A model generated the notes under the pieces. The model made no database searches. It had not been told where the DNA came from and was given only the letters and a program-made list of their open reading frames with translations. This document shows, piece after piece, positions 23,401-46,500 of a DNA stretch of 64,000 bases. Within the stretch, counting starts at the first letter, position 1. Each line of letters begins with the position of its first letter. The position numbers were made by a program, and so were the translations under genes. Source of the stretch: Octopus vulgaris (lineage: Eukaryota); assembly GCA_951406725.2 (NCBI GenBank), contig OX597814.1:186434001-186498000 (forward strand), in the 5' to 3' direction.

Positions 23401-25978
23401 GCCTGTATCCAAAGCACAGCAGTATTGAAATTATGACAGGCTTGTCTGATTGTGGACAGATGCTGTTAAGGTTCAGCTTGATGCTTTGTTTCAAGTGCAT
23501 GAGAGGCATTGACATGCCTACACCACCACTTCGATAGCTGTTATTTTTATTGCTATTGAGTGACCTTTAACTTTTCTCAAAGAGTGGAACTTGACTAGGT
23601 TGCAAGTTTAGCATCTGACAACTTGACCATATAGTACCACAGGTAAGAGGCTATCAAATACCCCTGGTGGCTTTATAGATTATGATCAATGTAGAAATTG
23701 GATGAAGGATGATTGAAGCCCTATCAAAGCAGCTTCAAGAGGAAATCCTTGTGCAGTGGGAAGCTGAAGTAAATTTAATCAGTAATAAATTTAACACACA
23801 AAGTTTATCTTCAACAAAAAAAATTAATGTATTAATTCCAGTTTAGTTAAAGATTGGAGAAAACTTTTTCCATAAGTTGGAATTCATTTTATTTTGCCTG
23901 TCAGCCCTTCTTCCAATAAAATTATAAAATATCAAATTATTTTTGTCATCTTTCATTGTAGAGGAGGGTATACAATTTTTTGATGTGGTACTGTTGTTTT
24001 ATTTTGTTTTATTGTTTTATTATTGTATCTGGGTTGATTCATTTATTACACCAAGATGAAATACAGATTTATTTCGTCTAAGTGATATATTATAGGCAGC
24101 CACAAAGACTTTTGTAAGTATAATATGTAAATTCATTTTTCTCTGATTTTGAAACACTCACACTCAAACATATACACACACATTTATTGATCTGGTTTTT
24201 CAAGAGAACTTAACAATTGACAGTTAACAGAATATGATCACAGCACATTTTTCTCTATCTCTTTAAAGAAAAAAAAAAAAAACTACAGCTTAAACATATT
24301 CACATTGTTGTTTTCTTTCTCCATAAGTTTTGAAAAATGTAATTTAAAGTTTGCTTTGCCTTATTTAGGAAATGTCTGCTATGTTCACGACTCTAGTCTC
24401 TGGATCTCCTTCACTGGATTAGATCTGTCTTGAGAACTGTCTTTATGGAACTTGTTCCAATCATCCCTTCTTGACGAATTGAATCAAGCAAAGAGGCTTT
24501 AGTTTGGGACTTTTCTTAAAAGACCAAATCTTTAAAAAAAAAAAAAAAAATGAATTGTTGTTTATATTTTTTTAAAGTCATTTACTTATCTATATTTTTT
24601 TCTTGTGCATGTTTTTCCTTCTAGAACGTTCTCGCAATGATCGTCAACATAAAGCTCCAAAGGCCATGGACGATAGCTATGTTGGAATTATAATTGGTGC
24701 TCTCGCTGCCCTCATAATTATTCTGTTCATTGTGGCTGTAATAATTGTGGTGCGGCATCGGCGATCCAAACATAACAACAACCAGCCTTGTCAGAAACCA
24801 GTCGTCCTTGGCGATAGGCATGTGACTATAAACCTTAGCGACCTCAGAGGTGGTTGCACCAATGGTAAGCTTTCCCATGGTAACATGTACAACAGTGTAG
24901 CAACAGATGATATGGACTCTGATCGAGAAATGTGTGCTGGCAGTGCAGATAAACTGTGTTCCAAAGGAAGTGGCAGCGGAAATTACCTGGAACCTAAAGA
25001 TAGCATTCAGGGGAGGAAACTACCTGATTTGCCTCCCACCCCTGATTCTTCAGGCAAGTATTTGGAAACCTCCTCCACTCCTACTTCCTGCTACTTATTT
25101 TGGGGTCTCTTAAACTTAAGTAGGTATAACATTTTATTATTAAAAGCATCAGGGAGCAAATAATCAATAAAGATTTCCAGTTTTTCAAATAAAAGCAAGC
25201 AAAAATTGAATTTAAAGATGAGATGATAGGCAATTATTAGAAAAGGAAAGTTGAGGATCTTGTTTTGAAAAAGCCATTAAGATATTAGTTTTCATTTATA
25301 AAATAATAAATTTGAGAATTTTCCTTTAGGAATTAATTTAAACAAATAAACTAAACTTAGATAAATTAGACTTGTATTCTTAGAGAACTCTGTGGAATCT
25401 GGATTAATATTTACCTTATTTTGTTGAAATACTATTTTTTAGTATTTTTAAGAAGCTAATTACTTAAGTTAAAAGCTTATTGCTATTCTATTTAATAGTT
25501 ATCATAGCATCAAATCTACTTAGAACCCTACTGTATGATTTCCAGCAAGGATTTGAATATTCTGTTTATTACTACTCAACACTTCATGAATTGGTTCTCA
25601 TTTTGCCTCAATTTATAGGCTTAGATCAAGGATTTAGGATTTTCAGACACACACACACACACACCCTTAAACATGTGCGTGCAAACACAGACACACAGAG
25701 TTTGAAATCAGCTTTTGCAAATAGATAATATTTATAAATTGAAGAGACTTTTCTGATAAAATACCTTCCCTTTCAATTGGATTTACTAAACTACATGCTA
25801 ATCCTATTGGAATGAATATATAAAAGAAACAATTTCCTAATCTCCAAACCTTATTTTCTCTGTGTAAAGATTAGTGAAAACAAATAAAATAAAATGGAAG
25901 TAGAAAATGATTCATTGTGAAATTGGTGATATTTCATTTGCTTATTGACTTTTATTGGTCAGAAGATGATCAATCAAT

Positions 25979-26013
<35 letters not shown>

Positions 26014-29000
26014 ATAATCATTTTATGTCCAGTTTTCCATGCCAGCTGGAGTTTAATAGGCTGTCTTAGTTCAAGTTATCTTGCACATATAACAGTCAAC
26101 CGGTCAGCTTTGGTATTGTGTCTTATGGTGTGAACTGGGCATTTCACTGTACCACTGGCACTTGAGAAGTTGTCCTATGTCAAGAGGATTATAGAGTCTC
26201 CTCTACCCTATATCAGTGCTTATGCAAAGTTGCTACCCTCCTTGACAGGTAGCCACATCTTGCTCATACATCCCATTTTGGCACGTCCTCTACACCTGAA
26301 GGCCCTTCCTGTCATTAACCTCTTAATACAGACTATGCCGGGTGAAATGCATAGCCGTCTTTCGCCTGCCGTTACGTTCTGAGTTCAAATTCCGCCAAGG
26401 TCGACTTTGCCTTTCACCTTTCGGGGTCAATAAATTAAGTAGCAGTTATGCACTGGGGTCGATGTAATTGACTTGATCCGTTTGTCTGTCCTTGTTTGTC
26501 CCCTCTGTGTTTAGCCCCCTCATGGGTAGTAAAGAAATATATTTGGTGCAGTTTGTGGTGCCACTAGCTCTTGAGAGCTTATTCTATGTGAGGACTAAAA
26601 TGTTCTCCCTTTTCTTTATCAGAAGTTATCTAGATTTAGAGTACCAGTGGTACTGTGAAACACTCAGTTCACACCATAAGACACAATACCAAAGCTGACT
26701 GGTTGACTGTTGTATGTGCAAGATGACTTGAATCAAGACAGCCTATTAAACTCCTGCTGGCATGCTATCTTAGAGGGGTGACCATCCAAAGATTGGGAAC
26801 ACGAGACTTAGAGTAATGGCAATGAAGTTTTTTGGGGTTATAATAAATGAAGTAAAATTCTTATGCCTTGAGTACTCTTTTTACTCTTTTTTTGTACAGT
26901 TCTGTGTTCTGTAACACAGTAAACATAGATAGATTTAATTGTAAGGATAATTTAAAAGAATATCTTAACATTAATATCATAGGTTTATGACTGTGATGTC
27001 TTTATTTTTGTTTGGTGAATTTCACTTTATGTTAAAGAGTTTACCTGACAAGAAAATCCAGGCAATTCTGGGTTCTAAATTTTAAGCTATCATTGCTATT
27101 GAACTTTAAACAATTGGCAATTTAACTATACAGATATGAATTGCTTAGCAAAATTTTTCCATTTAAAATAATACATTCAGCATACTACTATGCAGCAACA
27201 GTATTCATGGACAAAATTTTGCTGATTTATCTTTTTTTTATTCTGAATATTCACCTGCTTTTCTGAATAAATTCTTAATATTCAAGCAGGTGATTGTCCA
27301 CTACTCTATCCTCTTATTTCACTCATGCTTTCATTGGTGTATCTAAATATCAAGTAGCCGTGTATTAGTTCTAAACAGTTTGCAGTTAATATATTAGTGA
27401 AGAAATTTATCTCAAAGATATTGTATTTTTGCAGATAATATTTTGATATTTTAATGACAGAGCTTTCAAAATATGTTTTTATCTACTGAGTGTAGTGTTC
27501 CAAAATTGAATTAATTTTATCATTGTTGTATGGATTCAAATGACTTGAAGTTCCTCAATCATTTGCTGACATTTAATGAACTACTCAAGTCTGTAATTAA
27601 ATTGTTATTTAAGTGAAATATTAAGAATTCAGACTTAATTTGAAAGCATTTGCTTTAATTTGAGCGACTCTCAATAGTTTAAACAGAAAACTCAGCTGCT
27701 TCTATTTTGTTTTCCTACCCCTTCCAACTTTATTGCATTGCACCAAATGTTGTCATGTTGCAGTTGAAATGAAGTGCTGACTCATTCAAATGCATTTCCT
27801 TGGATTATGTAAGAGTAAAATATCAGAGTTTCAAATGGTGGTTAATGTTTGTATGCTTTTATTATTGCTGTTTGAAACATTACCCTCATCAGTGTCTGTA
27901 ATATCACACAGCATGTCTCAGATTTAACATGCTGTGACTGAACCAATGAACACTTCATTGTTTTCATGGTGTTACATTGATGGAAGAAAACATTTTAAAG
28001 GCCAGGAAATGCAAACATAAATAATACAGTTAGTTACAACTCATTGGGGATGTAAAATGTAATGTGCAATTTTGTTGACCTTTTTCAAAACATACTGCAT
28101 GAACGACCTGATAAATTGGTTGCTATGAGAAACAAATTAATGATTTTAAAAATAAAATATAATGGAATTGAAATTTATTATTTTTATAAGCTTTCTGTGT
28201 CTGTTCAGTAGTAAAGTACTCAAAAAATGTACTTCATAATTGAACAAAGACTAATTACATTTTAAGTTCTCTTTGTCAAGAATAACAGCATGTCTTTGAG
28301 ACATGCTTAATGACTGTTTAAAAAATAGTCTTTCATATAATTATTTTAGTCGCCAAGCATATATTTTATTACTTTAAATTTGAGAAATTAATATATATCA
28401 AATAGTAATGTTAATAATAAATATTAACTAGTTACAATATCAAAGTAAAGCTATAAAATATGCATTTTCTAACACATACACTCTCTTTCGCTCACTCATG
28501 TTTTAAGGCCATGTGTGTGTACATATATATATATATAAAATAAACGAATGGAAAATGGAATGAACAACATTATTTAAAATTATTACTACAATTGTTTCGA
28601 CACAGTTTAACATTCATATTACATTGGCGAGATGTTATGTAACCATTATCATCCTTCCAAAGTGTAAAATGCAACTCCTCTAGTGATTGTTTAAATGAGA
28701 CTTTCGTTAGATCTTGCTGACATTTCACTTAGTGTGAGAACGCATACCCAAAGCTGTGTGTTATTTTCAGCAGTTTACAGACAAAACCAAACTCATAGAT
28801 ATACTGACAGACAAAATACAATTATAATCAAAATGCAAAATAAAGAAATAGGCAAAAAACGGTGGGGTAAGGCTGGCTATAAATTATAATTCTACCTTCA
28901 TGGTCAGATTATAAGAAAGAAAATGCAAAACAGAATCAAGAATGAATTTCAGCTCTGAAAAACTAAAATGATGAAGACTGACCGTTCCTGTGCTTATCAA

Positions 29001-30353
29001 CTGTTTCTTTGTTTAAACAAAAACCTGAGGAGGTGAATTTTACACCTTGGATGGATGATAATGGTTACACATCTTACCAATCTATTACAAGTGTAAAAAT
29101 GTGTAGTAACAATTGTATTGATTTTGAATGTAGAATATTGTTCATTCCATTTTCTGTCATTTATCTATTTATATAAACTTTATGGTATTACTGATGTATA
29201 TCCAGTAACAAGAGTATTTCCACTGTATGATGATGTCAGATAGCCAATAACTGTGGACAAGCTTTACATAACATACTACAAGATTTTTACCCAAATTGTA
29301 TTTAGCTTATATGCATATATGTATAGATACATTTACAAAAAAAAACAAAACTCATCCATAGATATGTACATGAAAGTGTGTGTATGTATGTGTGTGTATG
29401 TACATATGTATATATATATATTCATATAAATATTAAAAAAATAAATAAATGCACTCTTTTAAACCCTAGCCAGGCTCATGGGCCCGGTTCCCCGGTTTCT
29501 ATGGCATATGTGTTCCCCAGCTGGACGGGACGCCAGTCCATCGCAGCGTTACTCATTTTTGCCAGCTGAGTGGACTGGAGCAACGTGAAATTAAGTGTTT
29601 TGCTTAAGAACACAACACGTCGCCTGGTCCAGGAATTGAAACCACAATCTTACGATCATGATGCTGACACCCTAACCACTAAGTCACGCACTTCCACTCA
29701 TATAAATATAAACAAAAATAATTGAAAAAATTATGGTAGACTAAGGAAAACAAAAATAAATTTGACCAAATATATTACAACTGTATAATTCTGTTAGTTA
29801 TTGTTACGTTCTAGAGAAATGATGATTGCACAGAGTTTCCTTACCTTTAGGTAAAAGCCACATTTTCTCCCTTTCAGATAAAAACATTTTATTTACTATA
29901 ATTCATTTATCATTTTTTTTTTTTTTTTTCATCATCATTATCCTTATTTTAACATTTTCTGTATGGCAATTACAAATCGAAAATCATAAAGATGAATATT
30001 TTAAAGTCATATAATGTGTAAAAGTAGAATTTAATCAATAAATATCAATTCTACATCACTAACATCTATAAATAGTAAGTCATCTTTCTAATGATGTATA
30101 TACGTTACTTTATAGTGGGACTTTCTAAAGAATTTAAAAGAATTTTCCAAAAAGAACCTCACATTCATCTTTCCCTTTCTGTTTCATTTTTTTTTTCTCT
30201 CATACATGTTGTCAATTGCATAGATCATCTGTTGCCTGTCAATCTGTCACTGTCTACATATCTGCCTGTTGTTGTTGTTCATTCATAGATGTATGTGTGT
30301 GTGTGTGTGTGTATGTATGGTCTACAAATACATATATATATATATATACATGT

Positions 30354-30398
<45 letters not shown>

Positions 30399-30568
30399 AG
30401 TGTGTACATATACATATGTGTGTGTATGTGTATATATTTTTATATATATATATGTGTATATATATATATATATATTTGTATTTATATATATATATATGTA
30501 TGTGTGTATATATATATATGTATTTATATATATGTATATGCATGTGTATGTATATGTATATATGTATG

Positions 30569-30601
<33 letters not shown>

Positions 30602-30828
30602 GGATTTATGTATATCTCTATGCATGTATGTATATATATATATATATGTATATATATGTATGGGCATATATATGTCTGTGTGTATATGTATATATGCATG
30701 TGTATACATATATATATGTATACATGTGTATATATACATGTGTATATATGTATGTGTATATGTATATATACATGTGTACATGAATATATATGTATACTTC
30801 TGTGTGTGTGTGTATATATATATATGTA

Positions 30829-30870
<42 letters not shown>

Positions 30871-31027
30871 CATGTATTTATATGTATACATGTATTTATA
30901 TGTATACATGTATAAATGTATACATGTATTTGTATGTATACATGTATGTATATGTATACATGCATTTATATACATGTGTATATATATATACATAATATAT
31001 ATATATATATATATATATACATTTATG

Positions 31028-31061
<34 letters not shown>

Positions 31062-31226
31062 ACATACATTTATGTATGTGTGTGTGTGTATATATATATG
31101 TGTGTATATATATATATATACATTTATGTATGTGTGTATATATAAATGTATATATATATGTGTATATATATATGTGTGTATATATATATATACATTTATG
31201 TATGTGTGTGTATATAAATGTATGTA

Positions 31227-31288
<62 letters not shown>

Positions 31289-33368
31289 TAGCATTTTGGG
31301 TGTGTAGTCTGTTTGCTCATTTTTGTGTTAGACTCATCTTAGCATTCCATTCATTATTGTATATGTCTGCTTGTTCCTCAGTATTATATGTCTGTAACAC
31401 TGTGTTAGAAGAAATGTTTGTTGTCAAATTCAATTTCATTTGTTATCAGTTTGCTCATCCATGCATTATTTTGTTCCTTTCCACCCCTCAGCTAAGATAT
31501 CTAGTTATGAGTATTTTGCCATTTCTCCTCTTTCTATTGTCACATTCTGATGTTATTTTGTTGACATGTTGTTATCATATAGATTACCCAGTGTAAATTG
31601 TGAATTTTAAAATATACATTTTAAAATGTATTTTATAATTTATACATCGAGTTTTCATATATTTTCTCTCTTCAACATTAGTTTCTCATTTTTCTTCATA
31701 TTTCTTTAAAAGGGCAATTTTTTCCCCCATTAGCTTTGTTGTATCTACATCATGCTTGTTTTAAACTATCCATATTCTACCTCTAAATCTTTGAGAATTA
31801 GAAGTTCTAGAATATATGTAGCATTATCTAAGTAAGTTTTCATTAAGTTAAAGATATGGTTTGGTAATTCTGAAATTCTGAAATAATCTTCTTGAGTTAA
31901 AGGTGATGGAATTTAATTTTTGTCTGAATTTCTGAGATAAAGATTTATCCTTATTGTATACTGATGTATTTAGGCTGTTATCTCCATACTGGTTGTTTAG
32001 TTATAATGGCTGAAATGATGCTGCATTGACCACAATGACGACACTAGTCTGAATATGTCAGTGTATAAGATGATAGATTTAAGGGTTTTTTTTCTATTTG
32101 ATTTATTATTTTCTTATATACACACACACTTTACTTCAAGGACACATATAGAGACACATGTCCACACATATGGAGATGCACATCCATACATACAAACATG
32201 GTACATAGTTGCAAAACACACACATACATGCATACACAAGGAGACAGAAGTGCATACATATACAAATGCATGCTCACACATACATAAAAAAATACACAAA
32301 CACAGACATGCAAGCATATGAATAAGCAGAATACATATATACAGATGCACACACATACATAATATATACATATGGATACACATACTTGCATACATACATA
32401 CATACATGCATGCATAGGCACACACACACACACACACACGTGCACAAACAAAGGTTGCAAGATGCAACGAAAATTTTAGGAAAATATAAATAAGGAATAA
32501 GTGGAAATTTCACCGGTGAGTGTGTTAAATTATAAGGCACAAAATGAAAATGATTCTCCCCAGACACAACAGAATATGCTTCAACACACGAACTCACATA
32601 CAGAATCTTGCAAACCAAATCCAAAACAAAATATCATCTTAAAACTAATGTTTTGTTGAGCTAATTGTTAGAACATTCAGTATTCAGCTTTAAACTATAT
32701 CTGATTTCGCTAATTAGCTTAAATTGAATAAAACGTACTAAAATTCACTATCAATAACAAATATTGTGTTGATCTGTTTTCTTTTTAACAGTTGGTTTAA
32801 TCTGATATAATTGTTATCATCTGGTCCCTTCATTTCTTTAGTAATTATTAAAATCGTTATAACATTGTATTAAGGTTTTAGAAGATATTCTATTCATGTT
32901 CTGTTTATTTTGGAACATGTTCTTTGATTTTATTCGTACAGAACTTTCATGCTTAGAGAAAACTTTAAGGTTATTAAGTCTTTCGCACTTATTAGCTATT
33001 GGTTGACAGTGAAACCATGTGATACCTGCTTAACTTTGAATAGCATAGAAATGGTTCTATTGAAAAAGAAAAAGACAATGCTGAGCAATTGAAAATGGGT
33101 GCTCAAGATTTGTTATAGAAGTAAAGTAGAGGTTGTATGGTGAAATGTTAAAATTGCAGTTCATCCTTTGAACTGTTATATTTATAAGGTTTCAGTAAAT
33201 AAATATTAATATAAAATAATGCTATTCACTGACATCTAGAATTACTGCAGCAATCAATATTAATCTGGTTGAAATTTAAGTTCAAATCCAGATGAATGTA
33301 TGCATAATGTCAGTAGCAATGATATCTATCTAAAATCATCCTTTTAAAAGTTTTCCTATGATTACCTT

Positions 33369-33401
<33 letters not shown>

Positions 33402-36400
33402 AGTGTACAAAAACAAACAAGAACAAAAGAAAAACAAACATGCCAAAAACTAAAATCCCAGAATAACAACACATACATTCAACTTGGTATACTAAAGAAA
33501 CAAGCATTTCAACAAAAATACCCTTGGTCCCAGGGGTAGGCCCAATGCGACCACAGAAGTGAATGTATGCCAAGATTAGATGCCTTTTCCTTTCATGCTA
33601 TTCATAGTGCCCATGATGGTGGGTTCCTCTCCCCACCACTGCCACCAAATCCTTGGTACTATGGAGAGGCTTGCTGGTCCTCACTCTCCCAACAACACCC
33701 CAAATGCAGCAGTCCAAGGGGTTCAAATCAAGAGAATTAGGGAGTCACAAGCACACAGTGTTTTTGTAGGGGAGGGGTGAATTTTACTGGACATGAGCTA
33801 TTCTCTTCTTTTTGCTTATACCTTTTTATTTATACCTTGAAGTCTTTGTGCATATCACATATCAAGTAGTGGATTCCACCACTTGGAAATTTTGGTGGTG
33901 GCTTCCATCAATACATTGAGGGTGTCATTGTTGATATCTTGGATCTGCTGGATAAACTCTGCTGTTCTCATGATATAACGATCACTGTGAATCTTTCTTT
34001 CTCTTAATCACAAATAACATGTCACTGCCAGTGGACCCCTGCTCTTGTCCTGAACATGCATAACCCAGCCATGTTCATGAAGCTGACCATCACCAAGTCA
34101 CTGTGGCTGGCAGCATGCCTTTCCATTTCCTGTGTCATATTGGAATCTGCCATGTTGATACTGGCAACAATGAGAAAATTAAAACTAGATACGTTGCATA
34201 TAAGATTGTTAGTCATTTTCCATTTATGGCCTGCTAAAGTTTGTTCACAGTTACCCAATGCACCTTGTATGTGTGTGTGTATTTAAAAGCACATACACTT
34301 GCACAGTATATCTTACATAAGTTATAATATCATGCTTGCAAGAAGCAGAAATTCTAATCTCCATCTCTTCATGAAAACTGCAATGAAAATTGACAGTTAT
34401 AGACTAAATGTAGTCTGTTAAGTATATAAAGATTATCATCATTGCATAGAATAGATTTAGGTAAACTGTTGTATTGAAATAGTTTCTGAATTTGAAATAT
34501 CTTATACTTGGTTACAGTCTAGTTTCCATTTTAGCAAAATTGATTTTTGATATTTTTATGATTCACTTGGAAGTAGCAGCGAAAAACTTGTCTTTTAGAT
34601 ATTGATTTGCACCAACATTTATTCAAATGGCTAAGAACAAAATGTTTTGGGACCAACATAAAGATTAGTATTTGGTTTAAACAGCTTCAGATTTCAAATC
34701 TTTATCTTACCTAGACATATTCCTAATGTTAAACATCAGTGAGAATGGAATTAATACTTTATGAATAATTGTGCTGATATCATTGAATTATTATTATTAT
34801 TATCATTGTTTCATTGAGATATTTTGTCGGTATATTAACAGTTGAAGAGACTAAGATACTTCCAAGAACAGCTTGTATACTATTGACTTTTTACAATACC
34901 ATCTTCAAATCTTGCAAAATAATTGGTACTTCTATCAAATATATTCTTGAAATCAGTAGGCAAATAAATACTCATCATCTTTCATATGGTTTTCTCATTT
35001 TACTCATTATTTCTAAAGATAACCCTCAAATTTTCACCAGTTTATTGAATTGTAAAGTTAACCAAAGCCCAAATTCATATTTATATACCAGATAATACTT
35101 TATTTAAAATTTATAATTGAATGAAAAAAAGAACATATAATTGGAATAATAATTTATTCACTTCTAACTGAACAGTTGCCAAAAGCAAAACAAAAATCTC
35201 TGTAAAATAAAACTATAAAGTTATGGAAATTAAAAGTAATAGATTCCCACCAAGTAAAGAAAACCACTCTTTTGAACATTAACTTTATGTAACAAATACC
35301 ATAATATATGTATCAATTATCATCTACTCATCTATGTTTCTAACATGTGAGAAGTTTTTTGGTGGTGAGAGATCTTCATATTAGCTTTAAACTTGTTGTA
35401 TTTTAATTACACTTTAAAATACACCTGAGTTTAAAAGATCTGCCAAATTTCTGCTATAAAATCATTATTTCTTCCAAATATAATACAATGGTATTTTTTC
35501 AAACATGGTATGATAACATTAAGAAATTCTACTTCATATTTGTTTCTGATGCTAATTAACCAACATTTCCTTGTTAAATATAGAAAAGCTTATATATTGA
35601 ATCTTAATTGATCTAAATGGGGCAGGGAAGAAAAGAAAATTTTTGATCTCTGTTATTTGGTTTAAAAAAAAAGTGGGACTTTCAGTAGAAATTACATTGT
35701 TTGGTATTTTGTTAAAAGGTTTGTTTTGATCATTTCTATTGAATTGTGATATTGCTGGTTTCAAATAGATCTTGCAATCATCATTCAGTAATAAATGCTG
35801 GATAATTTGTTACTTCTAAATGTGTATGAGTGTGTGTATCTGTATGTGTGATGAGACTTTGGTCTCTCATTTTCTTCAACTTTGATACTGAGTAGATTGT
35901 TGATTGCAAGTTGTATTGAAACCAGTTATATCTCAATCCTGGCAAACAGAATACTTTTCTGTTTATTTTATTACAAAAACTTCTCTTTAAAAAAAAATGG
36001 CAGATTTTTTATTTTTTGCTTCATTTTGTGAATTTTTTTTTACATAAAATGTATTAAAAAATATTTTTTAGTATTAAAAAAAAGCTGTAAAATATACATT
36101 GTCATTGACTTCATTTGAAACTTCTCATTAGGTAATAATTTTCCTTATTACTCTTATATATATTAAAAAAAAAAGGTAATTTTCTCCAGAATTATCATAC
36201 AGTTTTTATTAATATTATAATCAATAGAGTAATAATAGGTCAGTATAAACATCTGTCTTTTTCTTCTTTAATTTTCAATCTTCGTAAATAACTTTTATAC
36301 TTAGAATAAAAAAATCCCTTGTTCTTTTTGCATTCAAAGAATTTATACATTATTATCTTTTTTGCTTAAATCTCCCCAGCCAAATAATTATGAATATTTT

Positions 36401-37550
36401 CTGAATAAATTATCCTTTTGGCGAACTAACTTTACATTTTCAATTGTCACTCTCTTCAGTTTTTATCCTTTTTCTTCCATTTTTAAATCTTTACCTTAGT
36501 GAGGTGTTTTAAAACTCTAATTCTTGCTGACAACTCTCTCTCCTTTTTTCTCTTATTCATCAACAATGGCTTTATTTGCCACACAGCTTCAGTTTGGGAT
36601 GTCTATATATCTTATTTTTATCTCTTCATTTTTATCTTTATTTCAATCGAAGTTGGTATCTGTTGCTCTATGTTCTTTTGTCTCTTATCCTTAGGCATGC
36701 ACTTCATTCTCCCTGCGTGATGATGCCTAAGATTTGCTTTATTTTACAAATTTATAGGCATAATATTGTTGTCTTTTTAATCAATCTTATCACTTTAAAC
36801 TGGAAATTTTTTAATCAAAGATAGAGTATCTATAGTGGTAGACATGGTGTTGATAACGTTAAAACCTATACTTTTAGTGTTAACAAAATACTTTCAACTC
36901 TTAGCGTATTTATCTGTGAGAAGGTACAGTGCTAAACCTTTTCTCCAATCGTTATTGTGACAGGAGTAAATCTCAGTTTTCTATAAAGTTCAAATTGAAA
37001 ATTACTTCTTTCAGTTTGATAGTTATCTCTGAGTTATAAAGTGAGTTTATCTTATTTCAAACTTAATAACTTCATACATTAATATCCAGCAATTACTTTC
37101 TTTTTTTTTTAAATTCATGATAAGTTGAAAATATATATATAACAATCTTAAAGCATTTTAACTATTCTTACCAACATATCGAGAACCCTATTATTTTTTT
37201 TTTCTCACTTGTTTTCAATTATAGTATTTGATTCACCTATCATCTTTAGACTCCTCTTATCTAAACTCTAATTACAGTACTATCAAACTGATCAGATTGC
37301 ATATATCCTAAGTTTTGTTTTTATTTATATATACTTCTTTACATCACAGCTTCTCTCCCTTAAAAGCTACTAACAGCTTACATCAAAGTTTGATTGGAAA
37401 TTTAAACATTTCTCTCCCATCACTTACACACTTTCAACTTTTCTTATTTTCATCTGACGTAAATGTCATTAAAATACAGCCTTCATGATATCAATTATAT
37501 TTTAGTTTGATTTTTATCTGATAAAACTTGAAGTATTTTTATTTGAAGAC

Positions 37551-37587
<37 letters not shown>

Positions 37588-40500
37588 GGCTTAAAACTTC
37601 AAAACTCAGCAAAATGTAGAACTTTAAAAATAAAATTACTATAATTTCTCCAAAGCTAATTGAAGAAACAATAATGATAATGAAAGGCTTGCTTTTGGTA
37701 GGGAATTAGCCTCCATTACCCACCATTACTATTTTGTCGTACCAGACCTATAATTCTCTCTAATCAACAATGCCTGAATGACCCACTTCCATCACCTCCC
37801 TGCTGTCCACCCTTCCACACTGCTCTCTTGTTGTCTTAATCTGCCAGTACACTAGAGATCTATGGTCAGAATCCATTCCATCTCCTCGTATTCCAATCTT
37901 GCTGCCAAAAATGCTGGCCACCTAGCAATATTATTTCTTATTGCCTGCTATGTATTTTTTTTCTATAAAATGAAATTCTTCCACAGCTGTTGGAGATTAT
38001 TTTTGCTTGTTTTATTCTTTAATTTCTTTTAGTTTAGTTTTGAATTTAACATTTTTTTTATTGTTCTTTACTGCATTTTTCAATTTTTTTCTTGCTTTAT
38101 TCACTAAAAAATGCGCTTCTACTGACCTCTGTCCTATCAATTTTGCTTCATTTTATACAGATCCTTGCATCATCCATTTTTTTGTTATTAATAAATATTT
38201 TGTCTTAATGAAATAGGATTGAATAATATTTAGAACTTGAAAACTGTGTGAAAAATATCCATACTTTTTCTCACCATGATAACTGATGTATAGTAGTTTG
38301 AACCAGGAAATTCTTTTCTGTTATCAAATAAGCTATCACTAGATGAAGAGATTTTTAGACTTCTACTCCTAATATGCTTCTTTGCCTTCTGTTAAAAGTT
38401 TAACAAGATTAGAATCCATTTCAAAAGTTAGATTTAACCATGACTGCACTTTAAGAACTTCTATACCATTTTTTTTTCTTTTTTAAAGGAAAAGACATTT
38501 CTAGGTTTCTCTTGTGATATAAGTATATAATAGCTAAATTATTTTCCCCTGTTATCAGCATCAGCATCCCTAAATTTGTTAGTAACAAAGGTCTTGTTAT
38601 TATTCTATCTTGAACTACCAAAAGTATAGCAGTATTTTCCAGTACCTATCAAACGATTTAGTATTTGAATTCATTATCATGCTAATCACAATTAATCATA
38701 AAACATCCTAAATCCAGTTACATACATAATTCATTTAAGTTTTTTTTCTTTTAACAAGTTTCAACATTTTTTGTCATATTTAAACTATAATTTCTGCAAC
38801 TACATTAGCATAGCTTGCTTAATTGACACTGACAAAATATTTCAGGAGTAACAATCTACAAACAGTGTGTATTGTCTTTTATCTACATTTTTTTACTAAA
38901 TCTAATGGAGAAACACTTGCTTTTCTCAACTATCCTAGGATTTCACTCAAATGCTTTATCACCAGCTCCTATCTACCACTATATACACTCAGTTATACAT
39001 CCTTCCTTGTCTCTTTACTTCTGGACTAAGCCCTTGCATAATATTATCATTCATAGTCAGTATTATTAACATTTTTTTTTTTATTACTTTAAATTTTCCT
39101 CTAATTAAACTCATCAAACTGCTGGTATGGCATGACATTTCATCAAATTGCATGACTGTTTTTTTATTGTGCTTTTTTTGTAATGAATGTTTTCTGATTT
39201 TTCTAAATATTTTTGATTTTCATTTTTGATGTTATTACATGTTTTTATTTTTGCTATGGCTTGCTTATATATATATGTGTGTGTGCGTATGTGTGTGTGC
39301 ATTTGCATATATATATATATTTATATTTATATATATATATATTGTAGCTAGAATGTATTTATATGACTTGGTCCACGCAATGTTGTATTGTATTCGTTTT
39401 TTTTTTCTTTTCCCATCTCTCAAAAGCTAGATACCTGATACCTTCAAACAAACATATACTCATTCATGGGCCTACATAGCATGAATAGTATTCTAATAAC
39501 TTTTAGAAGAGTTGACATTTTATTTACACTAATAAAATTCAATATTCTATTTAGACTAATTTTTATTTTGTGGAAAAAAAAGTATCCATGCTATAGCTTT
39601 TCTGAAAACCATTTTTCATCATGTATAACATTATTTAAAATATTCAAATGTTTTTCTGTTTGTTTGGATTTTTTTTTTTTTTTTTACATTTAAAAAAAAA
39701 TATATTATTGAAATATATTTTAATAGAAATATCAATGAATTTTGGTATATTATATTTCTCATTTTATTAGCAGTATATATATATATTTTATTAAGTGTAC
39801 AATATTAAAATTGTCTGATAGCTTTTATAGAAATTAAGGCATATACAAAGTTTTCCTTTTAAATACTCTCTCCTTATCCCTATTCAATTTTTTTTTTTTT
39901 TTTTTTTTTGATAAAGTTCTACAAAAGCCAAATAATGAAAATCTGAAGTGTTTATTGCTTGAAATAGAATCAAAAATAATTTCTTTTCCTTCTTTTTACT
40001 GGAGGAAAAACTGAAAACAAAAAAAGTTCTTTACAGTTTCCAATGACTATAACTTTTTTTTTTTGCATAATATTTTAGCACTAAAAAAAATAGTTACATA
40101 CATACTCTTCAGTATGTGTGTATGTATGTGTGTGTGCATATATGTGTGTATGTTTTTTATGCATGAGCTCAACAATGTTTTTGGCACTAAACATTTTGGC
40201 TCATTAGCAATTTGATGTGTAAGTTCTAAGATTCATGAATTATATATCAAAGACAATAAACTGGCCTATTTGTGTCAACCCTTTAGATACTACTATCAAT
40301 AATTTAGGTATTTTCTACATATTACTTCTTATTATTTTTATCTTTTTCCAAACATTGCTTCTAATTAGTTAATAATTGATTATTTAGTATGTAAATAAAC
40401 TTTATCATGAATACTCTTTGTTTTATTTGGGGGTTGTTTTTATTTTCTGTATTCTGTTTTAGCTACAAAAACTTTTTTAATGGCTTTCCTTAAGTGAAAT

Positions 40501-43500
40501 TAATGTAAAATGAAAACAAAAAAGAGGTTGTGGGGTTTTAATTTTAAGTAAACTACAAGTAATATTCAAATCAAATTTATGTCACTTAAAGATTTTATGA
40601 AGGATTTGTTTTTTTAATGATTGTTTTACAGTTCAATGCTTCAGTAATAATGTCTATTAGTAGCAAGTCACATTTTCACATTACAATCAGTTTACTATTA
40701 ATCTTATTACTTTGAAGGGTTGATCTGAAATTCTATGGTGCCTTTGACTTTTATTTCACCAAATTATAGACATTGTATACTAACTTACACTTACCTACCT
40801 ACTTCTTACTGAGAAAATATAGCATATTCTGCATGTGATTGTGATGACAAGATAATGATGACAAACAGCTCTCTTTAACATCAATTTTACTACACTGTCT
40901 TAAGATAGATCAATATTTTATACAAGTTCTACTGGAAGATTTTTTTTTTAACTATCCTCTCATATATTAGTTTTATTCTGGAATAGTAGCTCTGCTGGGT
41001 GGGTAATCTTCACAAATTGAAGGTATTCACCTTTTGAAAAAGGAGACACTGATCACAGGTGAAGGTGTTAAAATAATAATGGGGAGGAGTAAATGTAGAT
41101 AAGAGAAAGAAAAGAGAATAATGGTGGGTGGGAGGTAATAATTTAGTGAGAAGAGCAGTGTCCACAATATTTTCAAGCCTTTCCAGAGTGGGTTGATCAA
41201 TATAGTTGACTTTTAGTTTGAACATCATATTTAAGACTATGTGGGTAGGGATGGAATTGCAGTTATAGGCAAGAAATATGATGAAAAATGCTTATTGAAA
41301 TAATAGTAGTAACAGAATTAGGTGAGCCAGATCACCTGGACATGCAACTTGCTAGCTTATAGCAGCAGAATCTATTGTAGTTACAGTTGAGGAAACAGAA
41401 AAAACAGTACGTATGTGAGCTAGGATTGTAGTATATTAGTGAATGACTTTCATATTTATAACTCTAACATGCAAAATGTTGGGAGAAAAAAATTCCCCCC
41501 GCCTAGAATTCCTAGTTTAACAAAAGATTTTATTCCACAGATTTGTCTGCTTATTAATAGTTATAAGGGACCTGCAAAAGTTGCAGTTATCACATTATTA
41601 GTCCTTTACTTTAATAATTTTTTTTAGTAAAACTAATTACCTATTAAATCAGTTTCAAGAATTAAAATTATAAAATTTTTAGTCCTTTTGTTTAATATTT
41701 TTCTGTAATTTTTTTAAAAAATTATTGATTTGATAAAATCATTTCTTTTACAGTGAAACAAATAGGATGCACTATCTCATCTATTAGGCCTAATCTTCTT
41801 AAGTCTTTATCTTCCACAAATACTCTCTAAAACTAACTTATAGCACTTTTCCCTAGCATGCATTGTTTTAATTAGATGTTCATACTAGTACAATCAGTTT
41901 TTAAATGTATATTTTCAAATCTCTTTGATACTCAGTCACTTCTACAACTTGTTTGCAGTTAAGTATCATCAAAGTGTATAAAGTTTGGCCTATGGACCAT
42001 ATTCAGAAGCCTTTCTCCAAATCCTGCAGATCATCTGCCTTTTTGTTCTGGGAGAGAAATCTTTAATCACCAACAGAAGCAGCAATAATTAGCTATATTT
42101 AAACAAACACCACAGATTAAATTTTTTTTAATGAAAACCTACTGAAGACAGAAGCAATTTTACATAATGCATTAAAACACAGAAACGATAACATTATTTT
42201 AAATTCTAGAAACAAAGCACTTGAATTTCAATAGATAAAGAGAAGTAAATAGTTCTTAAAGAGACTAGCGCCTTCTGCTTTCTAATCTCAAAATAATGGG
42301 TCTGTAGATGATCTTATTCATTTTCTATAAGTTAAGCAGTGGTTGCTCATGGAGTTAGCAGCTTCAGTGCATGCAATGCATCGGTGATTCTGGTTCCTTG
42401 CCAATCTGCCATGGATCCATTACCCCTTTTGTTCACCTCTTATTTTCATTGACTACACAACACTGAAGTCCTGTCTACTTCCTTACTGTATATTGAGCAA
42501 GTCTGTTTCTCAGATGCTTTTGAATGATAGCTAACCCCTTTAAATTAGTAAGCTAGTTTTTGTGGTATTCACTTTTTAGCCCCTTGTAGTATCAATCGGA
42601 AACAACTTTAAAGTTTTTAATTATTTCAAAAAATCTGGATTGAATCAGTCTTAATGTCAGGATAAAGAAACTTTCATAGATATCTCTTCTTGTACTTCTA
42701 TGAACCTAAACTATGATAAAGAAATCAAGACTGGTATCAGTCCTTGGTGCATACCTGCCTCTACAACATATCCTCCTCCCCCATGACCTTATTGAAATGT
42801 TCACTTATTTATACGGCCTGAATAATTTTTACAAATCATTCAGCCATATATAGCTTTTTCATTGCCCACTTGACTAAAGAATGCATCATAAGTTTCTTTT
42901 TTTTAAAAAAAAATAGTTCCTTGCGTGCAAAAACTCAAAACATTTGTATACTATGAGGAGGAGTCCTTTAACAATCTTGGTTCAATGTTGTGGGATGAAG
43001 ACCCAAGATAGTAGAATAGTGAAGTAAAATGTTGTATAATACTTAATTTCTTTTGCTGGCTTGAATTAAAATACCTGTGACAATTCACCTTTCAAGTGTT
43101 AAGAGTTAATAAAATAATGTTGTTTGTTCCTTCTCAAGCCACGCCTGGCTCATAGGGCCAGTTTCCTTGGCATATAGGTTCCCCACCTGGATGGGTTGCC
43201 AGTTCGTCGCAGGTGAGCTGCAAGATGCAGGAGGAAAGAATGGGAGAAAGTTGTGGCGAAAGAGTCAGCAGAAGTTTCGCCATTACCTTCTGCCGGAGCC
43301 GCGTAGAGTTTAGGTGTTTTGCTCATAAGCACACACATCACCCAACCTGAGATTCAAACCCGCGATCCCTTGACCGCGTGTCCGCTGCTCTAACCACTAG
43401 GCCTTGTGCCTCCACAATAAAATAATGTAGTTGGTTTGATTTGACTGACTACATGTCTACCTCTGCTACGATTAGCCCTATCAATATCTCGGTTTTATTG

Positions 43501-46500
43501 CTGCTTTTAATACTTGAAAGAAAATATTCCAAAACTAAAGATACTAGTTTATATCAGTGCCAAAGATTTCCTTTAATTGACTGATTTGAATAAATTTTCA
43601 GGTAATTTTAAATAAAATGAAAAATGTTAATGTTTTGAATCAGGGAAAAAAAAATCACAAGTGACTGAAATATCAGAGATTTAGCCATCCGTATGGTATT
43701 ATTTTTGTCTTTAAGATGGTTAAATTCATTTGTTTAATATTTGTTTTTAAAGCAATACGCTTTGAGTTTTCTATTTCACCACATTCCAGATTCCCGTGAT
43801 TATGCTGTACCTGACGTGACCAAGTCATCTTTGACAGTGTCCCTACCACCACGACCTCCACGACCTCCCAAGGGCACACCCATCATGGGTAACACACTTG
43901 ACAAACCTCCCAACTATGAAGCACTTTATGCTGCTGCAGATATAGTCAATGTACACGTGCCTAACATTCCCAGTCTACAGGGGGTTAGTGGCAACAATAT
44001 TTATGCAGTACCCAATGCTGACCTACTTCTTAGTATTGACTACTCTGTGGCAGAATTTCCTAGAGATAACCTTAAATTCATTGAAGTTCTTGGTGAAGGA
44101 CAATTTGGAGAGGTAAGATGTGTGCTTGTTATAAATTTGAATAATTTTTCTTTATATGATTTGATTTCAGCAATGCTTTGTCACCTTTGAACATCCATAG
44201 GCAAAAGTTTTTGTTGAACTATAAAAATCTTTTGTCAAACTGAGGAGGACAAGATGAAATCTAGACCTAAGAGCTTCTTATGATGCTGATATGATCTTTG
44301 GAGTTAGTTTTTGTGAAAACTTTATAAGAATTCTTATAGTTGATGCTATGGAAGGGAAAATATGATTCTTGGCTTTTTTCCCACTTTATAGAGTTGTGTG
44401 TTTCTTAAAAGCTTCATTAGATTAACACTATGCTCCAAACTCTCTTCCCAGACCTCATTAGCAACCACTATCTGTTCTTAAAGCACCAATTACAAGTATT
44501 TCTCTGGATTTTGCAATCCATAGTTTGTTTTTCTCACTAGACTCTTGGAAACTACTGAATGTAAACCCAGGAACTTTTTCATTTATCAAGTGTTTCAACA
44601 GTATGCTAATTTTCTTTTTGATTTTTCATTTTTATTTAGTTTCTCATTAATTCTACCATCTTTTTGGCCATGTGCAATGCTCTCCTCCTTGAACATAATA
44701 GTTTAAAAATATGTCTGGAAAAGTGTTGTTATTTAAGGATGAGAAATTGTGTGTCTTACTCAGGTGTTTGTAATTCTCTGCAGTCGAGTGTTCTAGCCAT
44801 AATTGGTAATATGCTAAAACTGTTATGGCTGAAGCCTTTGTATTGATCAATAAAAGCACTTCAGCATATGTCTCTTACTTTCAGCCACTTCATAATTCTA
44901 ACTCAGGAAATGGTATAATGTTTCGATACTAAAAAAGACAATAGTGGATCAGAATCTCTGCTGTGAAACTGTAATTCATGCAATTTATACATGCAATTAT
45001 GTGTGGAAATAGAAAAGTTTTACAAAAATACCATCACCATTGAAACAATAGATGCAATGATTTTATAAATAGCCTGAAAATTTTAACTGTATTTATGTGT
45101 GTAAGTGTGTGAGGCTTTGCTAATTTTGCACCTGCTTTTATTTTGAAAAGAATATAGAAAGTAAATAATGAATATAAATGGTTTAACAACTTTGAATTCT
45201 CATTAAACCAAGTTGAATGCATAGATAAAGGAAATGCCGGGAAAATGGCAATGAAGGCTGTAGTAATAAGATATTGAATGTTTTTTCTCTATTAGGTTTA
45301 ATCACATCTTGAGGAATGTGCTTGCTAGAAATGAATGTTAACTCTATTTTAACATATAACATGGAGAAAATGGAATATAATATCCATAATGTGATTACTG
45401 AGAATATTATGTTCATGATATATAATAACTATGTACTGATGTAACAGAAATGCAAAGAAACATGACCTTATATAAGCCCTATCAAAAATTACTTTTCTTT
45501 CATTTATTTATTTATTGTCTTAAATAAAAATTTTATTGGTTAACTTGAACAAAGATATCTTTAAAATTGTCAAGCACACCATAGTACAGAATTACTCTCC
45601 TGGGTAACATATTCTACAGTCTGCTTTCTGATCCTCAGTTGAACTTATTTAATTTCACTTACAAATTCAATTCTTCCTGTATTAAAAAAAAAAAAAAATT
45701 AGAGCTGGCAAAAGGAGAATTAATATAACATTCACTGAATGATGCTGGCACAGCTAGCTACATTTAGAAAATGCATTCTGAATAGAAAAAATTATACTCC
45801 GATGGTACATGTGTGTGTGTGAATAAATTTTAGATCTGCCTTTAATTAATTAAATTGCTGGAATACATGATTTTGCAGAGGAGTATGTGATTATTTCCAT
45901 TTGAATCCTGTCCATAAAACAATAAGTGGAATATCACCCCCTTCAAATAACAGTTTAACATAGACTTAACAATAAATTGAATTTCATTCCTTCACAATAA
46001 GAATAAAAAATATTTCGTCACATAACCTTTTGGTTAAGAAGTTTGTATCACAACTACATGGTTCTGAGTGAGATCCCACTGCCTGAGTAGCAACGAGTGC
46101 ACAGAATTTGGTAGTTGGAAATTGTAAAAATATATACATAAACATACATATTTACCATAATGTAAATATCCTAAAATATGTAAAAGCATAGATTTTCCAC
46201 ACTGCATCCATTATTTAATATAGAACTCAATTTGTTGGGAAGATATACTTTTTTATGTAATGAACACATATATTTAATATGTGTATCTGTATATGTAACT
46301 CACTCTAGTAAGACCATTTCTTGATTGTTATTCATGCTTCATTTCTAAAAATGACCGAGACTCTGCCTCTTAAGCATTGCAGTGACTGCAGCTGCACAAG
46401 AGATTTGTAATTGCTTTCACTTACTCTACACCTTCGATGTAATGAAGCAGGGAAGTGGCTGCATTTCATTGTCAGTGATGTACACGATACTCTGGCTGCT

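What the first reader, a model, noticed from the sequence alone, without database searches (positions are those of the whole stretch)
28528..29175. Compact element with two outward-facing hammerhead-ribozyme-like arms in inverted orientation
Seen: ~165-bp arms are diverged reverse complements around a ~315-bp spacer with no recognisable coding similarity. The right arm (+) has CTGAGGA (29025-29031), a long stem II (ATTTTACAC...GTGTAAAAAT) and then G(T)AAC-AATT-GTA. The left arm (-) has an intact GAAAC-AATT-GTA but a damaged CUGA (TAGAGGA). Combining the arms gives a complete core with stem I AATCAC/GTGATT. Established: Penelope-like elements carry minimal type I hammerheads with a very short stem III capped by a palindromic loop (here AATT), thought to cleave as dimers, and often have inverted terminal copies; retrozymes are non-autonomous hammerhead-bearing retroelements. 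Inference: this is a decayed copy of a non-autonomous hammerhead retroelement family, possibly undescribed in cephalopods. Its arms would also fold back into dsRNA in the DDR pre-mRNA.
Basis: partly seen in the sequence, partly recalled or inferred. Interest (0 to 1): 0.72.

Follow-up and report, generated by a model that had tools for sequence, protein, structure and literature searches.

The report
Back-to-back Penelope retrotransposon ends, likely edited
These are two broken-off tail ends of a long-dead jumping gene of a known kind that sit back to back in an intron of a receptor gene; each carries a damaged copy of a predicted self-cutting RNA, and the two ends are predicted to pair into a hairpin that the cell likely edits.

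Summary
The arms and motifs are real, but this is not a compact two-armed element. It is two 5'-truncated 3' ends of one repeat family joined head to head at 29009-29014. Other copies sit behind a decayed RT-endonuclease frame with Hydra-clade motifs, so the family is a Penelope-like element (PLE) with a few thousand dead copies. Inverted stubs, (TA)n targets and hammerheads are published PLE traits, and an Octopus Hydra family is already in print. The family majority gives a complete type I hammerhead. Both window arms have core damage, copies show no covariation, and the arms lie on opposite strands, so they cannot form a dimer in cis. Two traits are unusual: a 77-nt stem II and a tail of about 140 nt. 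Spliced-RNA contigs span the locus and differ from the genome only by A>G at four arm positions, which suggests A-to-I editing of the hairpin in DDR pre-mRNA (no matched DNA). The scan reported this long-armed Hydra class before on other DNA.

The parts
28511..28537 (.). (TG)/(TA)n microsatellite at the left insertion end; no target-site duplication seen
   Evidence: sequence; family 3' ends mostly abut simple repeats
28528..29014 (-). Left piece: 5'-truncated 3' end of the PLE (3' UTR/pseudo-LTR plus hammerhead), ending at the untailed 3' end.
   Evidence: matches reference positions 561-1049 in one block
28581..28688 (-). Left hammerhead, antisense to DDR. C3 and U4 lost, stem I 4 of 6 pairs, stem-loop II 77 nt (28675-28599), palindrome 28595-28588, predicted cut after 28587
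29008..29021 (.). Head-to-head junction: about 6 nt overlap of the two pieces (29009-29014) inside a 14-bp palindrome
29009..29315 (+). Right piece: shorter 5'-truncated 3' end, starting 16 nt before the core and ending at the tailed 3' end
   Evidence: matches reference positions 880-1198
29019..29123 (+). Right hammerhead, sense to DDR pre-mRNA. Core 29025-29031, stem-loop II 74 nt (29032-29105), A13 changed to U, C11.1 lost, stem I 3 of 6 pairs, palindrome 29109-29116, predicted cut after 29117
29176..29306 (+).
29307..29330 (.). TA-rich repeat at the right insertion end
28661..28661 (+). A>G in RNA contigs of X1, X2, X3 and X5 (two studies); A opposite C29046 in the predicted duplex; candidate A-to-I site
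29067..29137 (+). A>G at 29067, 29090 and 29137 in RNA contig of X2 only; DNA contig of X16 (another organism label) has A at all three; candidate A-to-I sites
24625..44187 (+). Host context: DDR transmembrane exon from 24625, long intron holding the insertion, next exon detected at about 43.8-44.1 kb

Best explanation
The locus is two 5'-truncated 3' ends of a decayed Hydra-clade Penelope-like retrotransposon joined head to head in a TA repeat of a DDR intron, likely made in one insertion event, and the arms are predicted to pair in the pre-mRNA into a hairpin that is likely edited by ADAR. Shown: the two-piece anatomy, the link of the family to a PLE reading frame, the two fixed 3' ends, core damage in both arms, RNA contigs across the locus. 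Inferred from PLE biochemistry (PMC11167929): the element's endonuclease cut both strands of the TA target, reverse transcription began at two internal start sites (one giving the tailed end, one the untailed end), both cDNAs stopped early and were joined through a few matching bases. Inferred: the ancestral hammerhead cut tandem element RNA as a dimer through its 8-nt palindrome, perhaps with protein help; the two window copies most likely no longer cut.
For: Anatomy. Family DNA lies 3' of the frame on the same strand in L115, L158, L159, L160, L165 and as an inverted 5' copy in L157, L159, L161, L174: 7 of 20 ten-kb loci, 5 of the 18 not picked for closeness. Motifs: CxCX5C linker, C-terminal GIY-YIG-like VIY...IG, CxH, no CCHH by eye fit the Hydra definition. 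44% identity over 140 aa to sister copy L186, which has RWK and DKT. Relative L211 shows hammerhead end, tail, then frame. 19 of 74 loci have an inverted pair, 18 head to head, 17 of these 18 with one tailed and one untailed end. The arms differ by 22%, like random copy pairs (24 +/- 5%). All core positions are the majority base in 50 copies and 84% of stem cells pair. Editing: X2 holds a spliced DDR junction; 14 of its 17 listed differences in 24400-30200 are A>G, against 5 of 17 and 4 of 17 in DNA-like runs X15 and X16; all 4 sites in 28370-29369 lie in the arms (chance about 0.01 by A content).
Against: Pfam found no family for the endonuclease remnant and the protein search found no homolog among longer proteins, so the clade call rests on motifs and on in-genome relatives; no tree was built. 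No intact or full-length copy of this family was found. The second Cys of the CxxC motif was not seen in 3 of 3 copies, and L115 reads DKN, not DKT. No covariation among copies: RNAalifold gave no structure, pair statistics did not exceed shuffles, and the majority sequence did not fold better than shuffles (z -0.8). Editing rests on contigs, without DNA of the same animals; three of the four changes go toward the family majority base, as an allele could; 28661 had no locus-specific DNA cover at 95% likeness.
Confidence: 0.85

Rival explanations
1. A non-autonomous hammerhead element (retrozyme-like or SINE-like), derived from the PLE end and mobilised in trans, made most copies including this one.
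For: Most sampled copies are short and lack coding sequence, and many start at a shared TA-rich point about 700 bp upstream of the untailed 3' end. A preprint argues that animal retrozymes derive from PLE pseudo-LTRs (10.64898/2026.07.22.740005; abstract, introduction and part of methods read).
Against: No tandem arrays of the unit were seen in self-comparisons of 30 loci. Several copies run on upstream of the shared start into 3' UTR and frame. 5' ends in inverted pairs are scattered. The window's pieces start at unrelated internal points.
Confidence: 0.1
2. A DNA transposon or MITE whose terminal inverted repeats are the two arms.
For: Inverted arms at both ends and TA-rich flanks.
Against: Arm length and junction differ at every inverted locus and 55 of 74 loci have no inverted pair. 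The arms are no closer to each other than random copies. No target-site duplication was seen. The sequence is linked to RT.
Confidence: 0.01
3. The hairpin or the sense hammerhead has been co-opted to regulate DDR, for example by guiding recoding of the nearby exon or by cutting the intron.
For: The locus is transcribed, likely edited, and shared with a second organism label. An A>G change giving Ile to Val lies in the exon 3.8 kb upstream.
Against: The sense hammerhead lacks A13 and half of stem I. RNA contigs run across its predicted cut site. Decay matches neutral copies. Nothing links the exon site to this hairpin, and a second inverted repeat nearer the exon is also edited.
Confidence: 0.04

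Closest known systems
Hydra clade of C-terminal EN+ Penelope-like elements, including Hydra-1_Obim of Octopus bimaculoides (Craig et al. 2021, PMC8557442; passages, section 11, supplement parts with Files S1/S2 read)
   Same: CxCX5C linker, C-terminal GIY-YIG-like domain without CCHH, RWK/DKT in close relatives, (TA)n targets, type I hammerhead near the 3' end with a CTGAGGAG...CGAAACA..TGTA-type core as in Penelope-2_NV and Hydra-1_aMil, 5'-truncated inverted copies.
   Different: Another family than Hydra-1_Obim, whose short-armed hammerhead also occurs in this genome. Stem-loop II is 77 nt against about 12-24 nt in the Hydra rows of File S2. The tail is about 140 nt against 30-40 bp stated for PLEs and about 50 nt in the Hydra-1-like copies here.
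Minimal hammerheads of metazoan PLEs (Cervera and de la Pena 2014, PMC4209133; parts 1-2 of 4 read)
   Same: Type I topology, tiny palindromic helix III, G10.1-C11.1 pair, thousands of solo copies; the paper already notes pairs 100-700 bp apart on opposite strands.
   Different: Helix II there is 7-8 bp; here about 16 bp plus a further irregular extension. No extra base between 9 and 10.1 in my pairing.
Poseidon element of Anolis (Frangieh et al. 2024, PMC11167929; parts 1-2 of 4 read)
   Same: Two fixed 3' ends separated by a tail that is the start of the next unit; AT-rich targets; both strands cut and extended.
   Different: Other clade; in Poseidon the frame starts inside the hammerhead, here the hammerhead and tail precede the frame (L211). 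Its hammerhead was shown to need protein; untested here.
Non-LTR retrozymes of animals (Cervera and de la Pena 2020, PMC7229834; passages read)
   Same: Non-coding, low GC, type I hammerhead, high copy number.
   Different: Retrozymes are 150-450-bp head-to-tail tandem units with circular RNAs; this locus is a head-to-head pair of truncated PLE ends and no tandem arrays were seen.
A-to-I editing of inverted repeats in animal pre-mRNA (Zhang et al. 2023, PMC9989829; passages read)
   Same: Repeat-derived intramolecular dsRNA as main ADAR substrate, Octopus among the species studied.
   Different: Here a single PLE insertion event likely supplies both arms, and the arms are old (22% apart), while the paper finds young repeats edited most.

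Membership tests
Penelope-like elements (EN+) | Single frame with RT and GIY-YIG endonuclease joined to the terminal repeat | tested here: met
   Broken RT (YRDD in L161, L162) and C-terminal endonuclease-like frame upstream of family DNA; Pfam did not score the remnant. The window copy itself has no coding part.
Penelope-like elements (EN+) | Pseudo-LTR arrangements: direct repeat before the frame, inverted 5'-truncated copy | tested here: met
   Inverted 5' copies in L157, L159, L161, L174; direct repeat end before the frame in diverged relative L211 only.
Penelope-like elements (EN+) | [quoted passage not shown] | tested here: met
   3' ends cluster at two sites; 17 of 18 head-to-head loci have one of each. 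Longer than the published 30-40 bp.
Hydra clade | CxCX5C linker before the endonuclease | tested here: met
   L115 and L158 intact, L159 and L163 degenerate.
Hydra clade | No CCHH motif; CxH after the conserved N; CxxC near the conserved E | tested here: inconclusive
   No CCHH and CxH present by eye in L158, L159, L163; second Cys of CxxC not seen in these 3 decayed copies.
Hydra clade | RWK and DKT motifs in the RT N-terminal region | tested here: met
   Both in L206 (72% DNA identity to the L115 frame) and sister L186; DKT in L211; L115 itself reads DKN. L206 was not shown to carry this hammerhead.
Hydra clade | (TA)n insertion preference | tested here: met
   3' flanks are mostly TA, CA or related simple repeats, judged by eye; both window ends too.
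Hydra clade | RT phylogeny inside the clade | not tested
   No reference proteins were available as stored sequences; compared by eye with the published Hydra-1_Obim alignment rows.
Type I hammerhead (family ancestor) | CUGANGA, GAAA, UH in canonical order with stems I, II, III | tested here: met
   Every core position is the majority base (76-98%) in 50 copies; 10 of 50 copies have a full core; 83.7% of stem cells pair against 32-45% for slid controls.
Type I hammerhead (family ancestor) | Covariation of stems | tested here: inconclusive
   Not above shuffles within the family, as expected for dead copies of one master. Across families the layout recurs with unrelated long stem II sequence: L186, L083, L069, L157, by eye only.
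Type I hammerhead (window arms) | Intact catalytic core | tested here: not met
   Right arm A13 to U and C11.1 lost; left arm C3 and U4 lost.
Type I hammerhead | Self-cleavage | not testable with these tools
   Needs in vitro assay; contigs cannot show RNA ends.
Non-LTR retrozyme | Head-to-tail tandem units of 150-450 bp, each with a hammerhead | tested here: not met
   None seen in self-comparison of 30 loci of 3.3-3.6 kb; window copy is head to head.
Non-LTR retrozyme | Circular monomeric RNA | not testable with these tools
   Only contigs were offered.
TIR DNA transposon / MITE | Fixed terminal inverted repeats and target-site duplication | tested here: not met
   Variable breakpoints, most copies without inversion, no duplication seen.

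The most novel reading that the evidence does not exclude
Hydra-clade PLEs insert by paired priming with a strict division of labour: the two cut target strands start reverse transcription at two different RNA sites about 140 nt apart, so each two-sided event leaves a one-tailed inverted pair. In octopus this single-step mechanism has seeded hundreds of ready-made intronic hairpins that feed ADAR, and the 77-nt stem II is a protein-docking arm of a long-armed hammerhead class that standard searches miss.
Probability: 0.3. Interest if true: 0.55.

Novelty: new variant of a known kind. Interest (0 to 1): 0.3.

Why it matters
The locus itself is transposon debris of a described layout. Three points have modest value. 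First, the family hammerhead has a stem II three to six times longer than published Hydra-clade ones and was missed by Rfam here, so ribozyme counts in such genomes are likely too low. Second, 17 of 18 head-to-head pairs carry one tailed and one untailed end, a genomic pattern that fits two reverse-transcription start sites being used in one event, and the long tail makes this easy to count. Third, the RNA contigs suggest that such stubs become A-to-I substrates in a lineage known for heavy editing.

Tried and rejected
Rfam: no hammerhead match. GIY-YIG family search of the genome returned other PLE families (781-aa frame and relatives) with no DNA match to this family apart from simple repeats. 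Pfam and the protein homolog search gave nothing for the remnant. I first read the remnant as Neptune-like; the CxCX5C motif and missing CCHH moved it to Hydra. An apparent likeness of the tail to the 5' end of Hydra-1_Obim did not hold: 2 of 30 tails scored above 95% of shuffles and the profile did not hit L198. RNAalifold gave no consensus structure and covariation was not above shuffles. Single arms fold no better than shuffles (z -0.6 and -0.75). Core columns are barely more conserved than others (0.90 against 0.88), so no sign of selection on copies. No run was on record as RNA and no raw reads were offered, so cleavage ends, circles and editing levels could not be seen; X2 was judged RNA from a spliced junction. 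Search of earlier findings by sequence was blank. Paper searches for this family or for long stem II in PLE hammerheads found nothing on point; Lunse et al. on dimer cleavage was not held and is known to me only as a citation in PMC6765202. Repbase and Dfam could not be searched, and the repeat library of PMC13282606 was not opened, so the family may already have a library name.

Full report
Observation. The two arms exist as described: 28532-28695 and 29012-29175 align as reverse complements at 77% over 170 columns. The motifs are at the stated places. The strand 28528-29185 folds into one long hairpin, far better than shuffles. Rfam found no hammerhead. The window holds a DDR receptor kinase gene on the + strand, with the feature in the long intron after the transmembrane exon.

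The real unit. A genome search gave 84 matches from 40 scored of 662 candidates. The spacer and left arm match other copies as one block, and the right arm matches separately. In other copies the order on the ribozyme strand is spacer, hammerhead, then the DNA that lies right of 29175 in the window. So the locus is a minus-strand piece (29014 to about 28528) and a plus-strand piece (29009 to about 29315) of one repeat, joined head to head. They overlap by about 6 bases inside a 14-bp palindrome. Palindromes at inverted junctions are reported for rotifer PLEs (PMC3846280, passages). Of 74 distinct loci (90 fetched, duplicates dropped by hand), 19 have an inverted pair, 18 of them head to head, with different breakpoints each time. 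The arms are 22% apart, like random copy pairs. This rules out terminal inverted repeats of a DNA transposon.

The parent element. Walking upstream, locus L115 holds a broken RT and linker frame on the same strand before the family sequence. A search with 98 residues of it scored 150 places. In 20 ten-kb stretches, 7 carry family DNA where a PLE would have it: 3' of the frame (L158, L159, L160, L165) or inverted at its 5' end (L157, L159, L161, L174). Two of the 20 were picked because I had seen them near family hits; among the other 18 the count is 5. With roughly one copy per 800 kb, about 1 in 100 is expected (my estimate). The frame ends in CxCX5C, a VIY...IG endonuclease-like stretch, and CxH, with no CCHH by eye. 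This is the Hydra clade definition (PMC8557442 section 11). A better kept sister copy, L186, has RWK and DKT and aligns at 44% over 140 residues to the L159 endonuclease. L206, 72% identical in DNA to the L115 frame, has RWK and DKT. Against this: Pfam and the homolog search did not recognise the remnant, no tree was built, and no intact copy was found. The same paper's supplement lists Hydra-1_Obim from Octopus with a short-armed hammerhead. A 21-base motif of it hits 23 places in this genome, which is my main ground for calling the host an octopus (inference). Those copies are a different family.

Two 3' ends. Family 3' ends cluster at two sites about 140 nt apart, mostly followed by simple repeats. 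In 17 of 18 head-to-head loci one piece is tailed and the other is not; L046 is the exception, and the loci were selected for having a tail, though all 7 such pairs among the first 30 loci follow the rule too. In relative L211 the hammerhead end is followed by the tail and then by the frame, and Hydra-1-like copies show the same with a tail of about 50 nt. So the tail is the leader of the next unit. In the Anolis element the tail lies between two reverse-transcription start sites and both target strands are extended (PMC11167929). I infer the same mechanism here.

The ribozyme. I aligned the 50 of 84 distinct copies that span the core. Every core position is the majority base, and stems I, II and III pair in 83.7% of cells against 32-45% in slid controls. 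Stem-loop II is 77 nt, against about 12-24 nt in the published Hydra rows. Ten of 50 copies keep a full core. Mean divergence from the majority is 13%, the core is hardly better kept than other columns, and covariation is not above shuffles: these are neutrally decaying copies. An exact 18-base piece of the 3' core occurs 815 times (control 1) and is exact in 12 of 50 copies, giving a rough 3,000-3,500 copies. Other long-armed hammerheads with unrelated stem II sequence occur in L186, L083, L069 and L157. Both window arms are damaged in the core. They lie on opposite strands, so a transcript holds one ribozyme and its antisense; opposite-strand pairs 100-700 bp apart were already noted in 2014.

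RNA evidence. No run was on record as RNA, but X2 holds a contig joining the exon that ends near 21944 to the one that starts at 24625. Locus-specific contigs of X1 and X2 span about 28360-29369, across the predicted cut. Their only differences are A>G: 28661 in X1, X2, X3 and X5 (two studies), and 29067, 29090, 29137 in X2. All four lie in the arms (chance about 0.01), two opposite C and two in A-U pairs. Over 24400-30200, 14 of 17 X2 differences are A>G, while DNA-like runs X15 and X16 show mixed spectra; an X16 contig spans the junction and has A at the three right-arm sites. This points to A-to-I editing. It is not proof: no matched DNA, and three changes go toward the family majority. Editing of inverted repeats is well known in animals (PMC9989829).

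Verdict. A decayed inverted pair of Hydra-clade PLE ends: known class, known layout, with a long stem II and a long tail that I did not find in print (repeat libraries not searchable). Earlier notes of this scan describe the same long-armed class at other places; I reached my reading before seeing them and they are not independent support. Interest 0.3.

Noticed in passing
window 24717: A>G in the X2 RNA contig turns ATT (Ile) into GTT (Val) in the DDR transmembrane exon; DNA-like runs X15 and X16 have A. Candidate recoding site or allele.
   Followed up: partly
window 26038-26162 and 26640-26764: A second inverted repeat (91% identical) in the same intron; X2 shows A>G at 26068, 26073, 26074, 26686, 26692, 26693, 26736, where covering DNA runs have A. 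Likely another edited hairpin.
   Followed up: partly
window 53605-54178: Intronless remnant of ribosomal protein P0 (Pfam RL10P_insert) inside a DDR intron, likely a processed pseudogene.
   Followed up: no
L073, L074, L075 (G000 C16, C17, C9): Young PLE family with many open 781-residue RT plus GIY-YIG frames, an upstream open frame, pseudo-LTR starting at a TATAAAA site, and a hammerhead-like motif with a U3-A8 core.
   Followed up: no
L186:1911-2030; L083:5656; L069:455; L157:945: Further hammerheads with 59-80 nt stem II of unrelated sequence; L186 belongs to a sister Hydra family and shares stem I and the stem III palindrome with the family studied.
   Followed up: partly
window 52155-52429: Tandem array of 4.4 copies of a 61-bp unit inside a common repeat, next to a LINE-like C-terminal frame at 52586-52864.
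   Followed up: no
L053 / L115:2420-2680: About 250-bp near-perfect palindrome formed by a local inversion inside the element's 3' UTR, replacing the endonuclease-to-UTR continuity; the endonuclease part is deleted in this copy.
   Followed up: no
L216-L218 (G000 C18): Three equally scoring copies of a Hydra-like element within 130 kb, possibly a segmental duplication.
   Followed up: no
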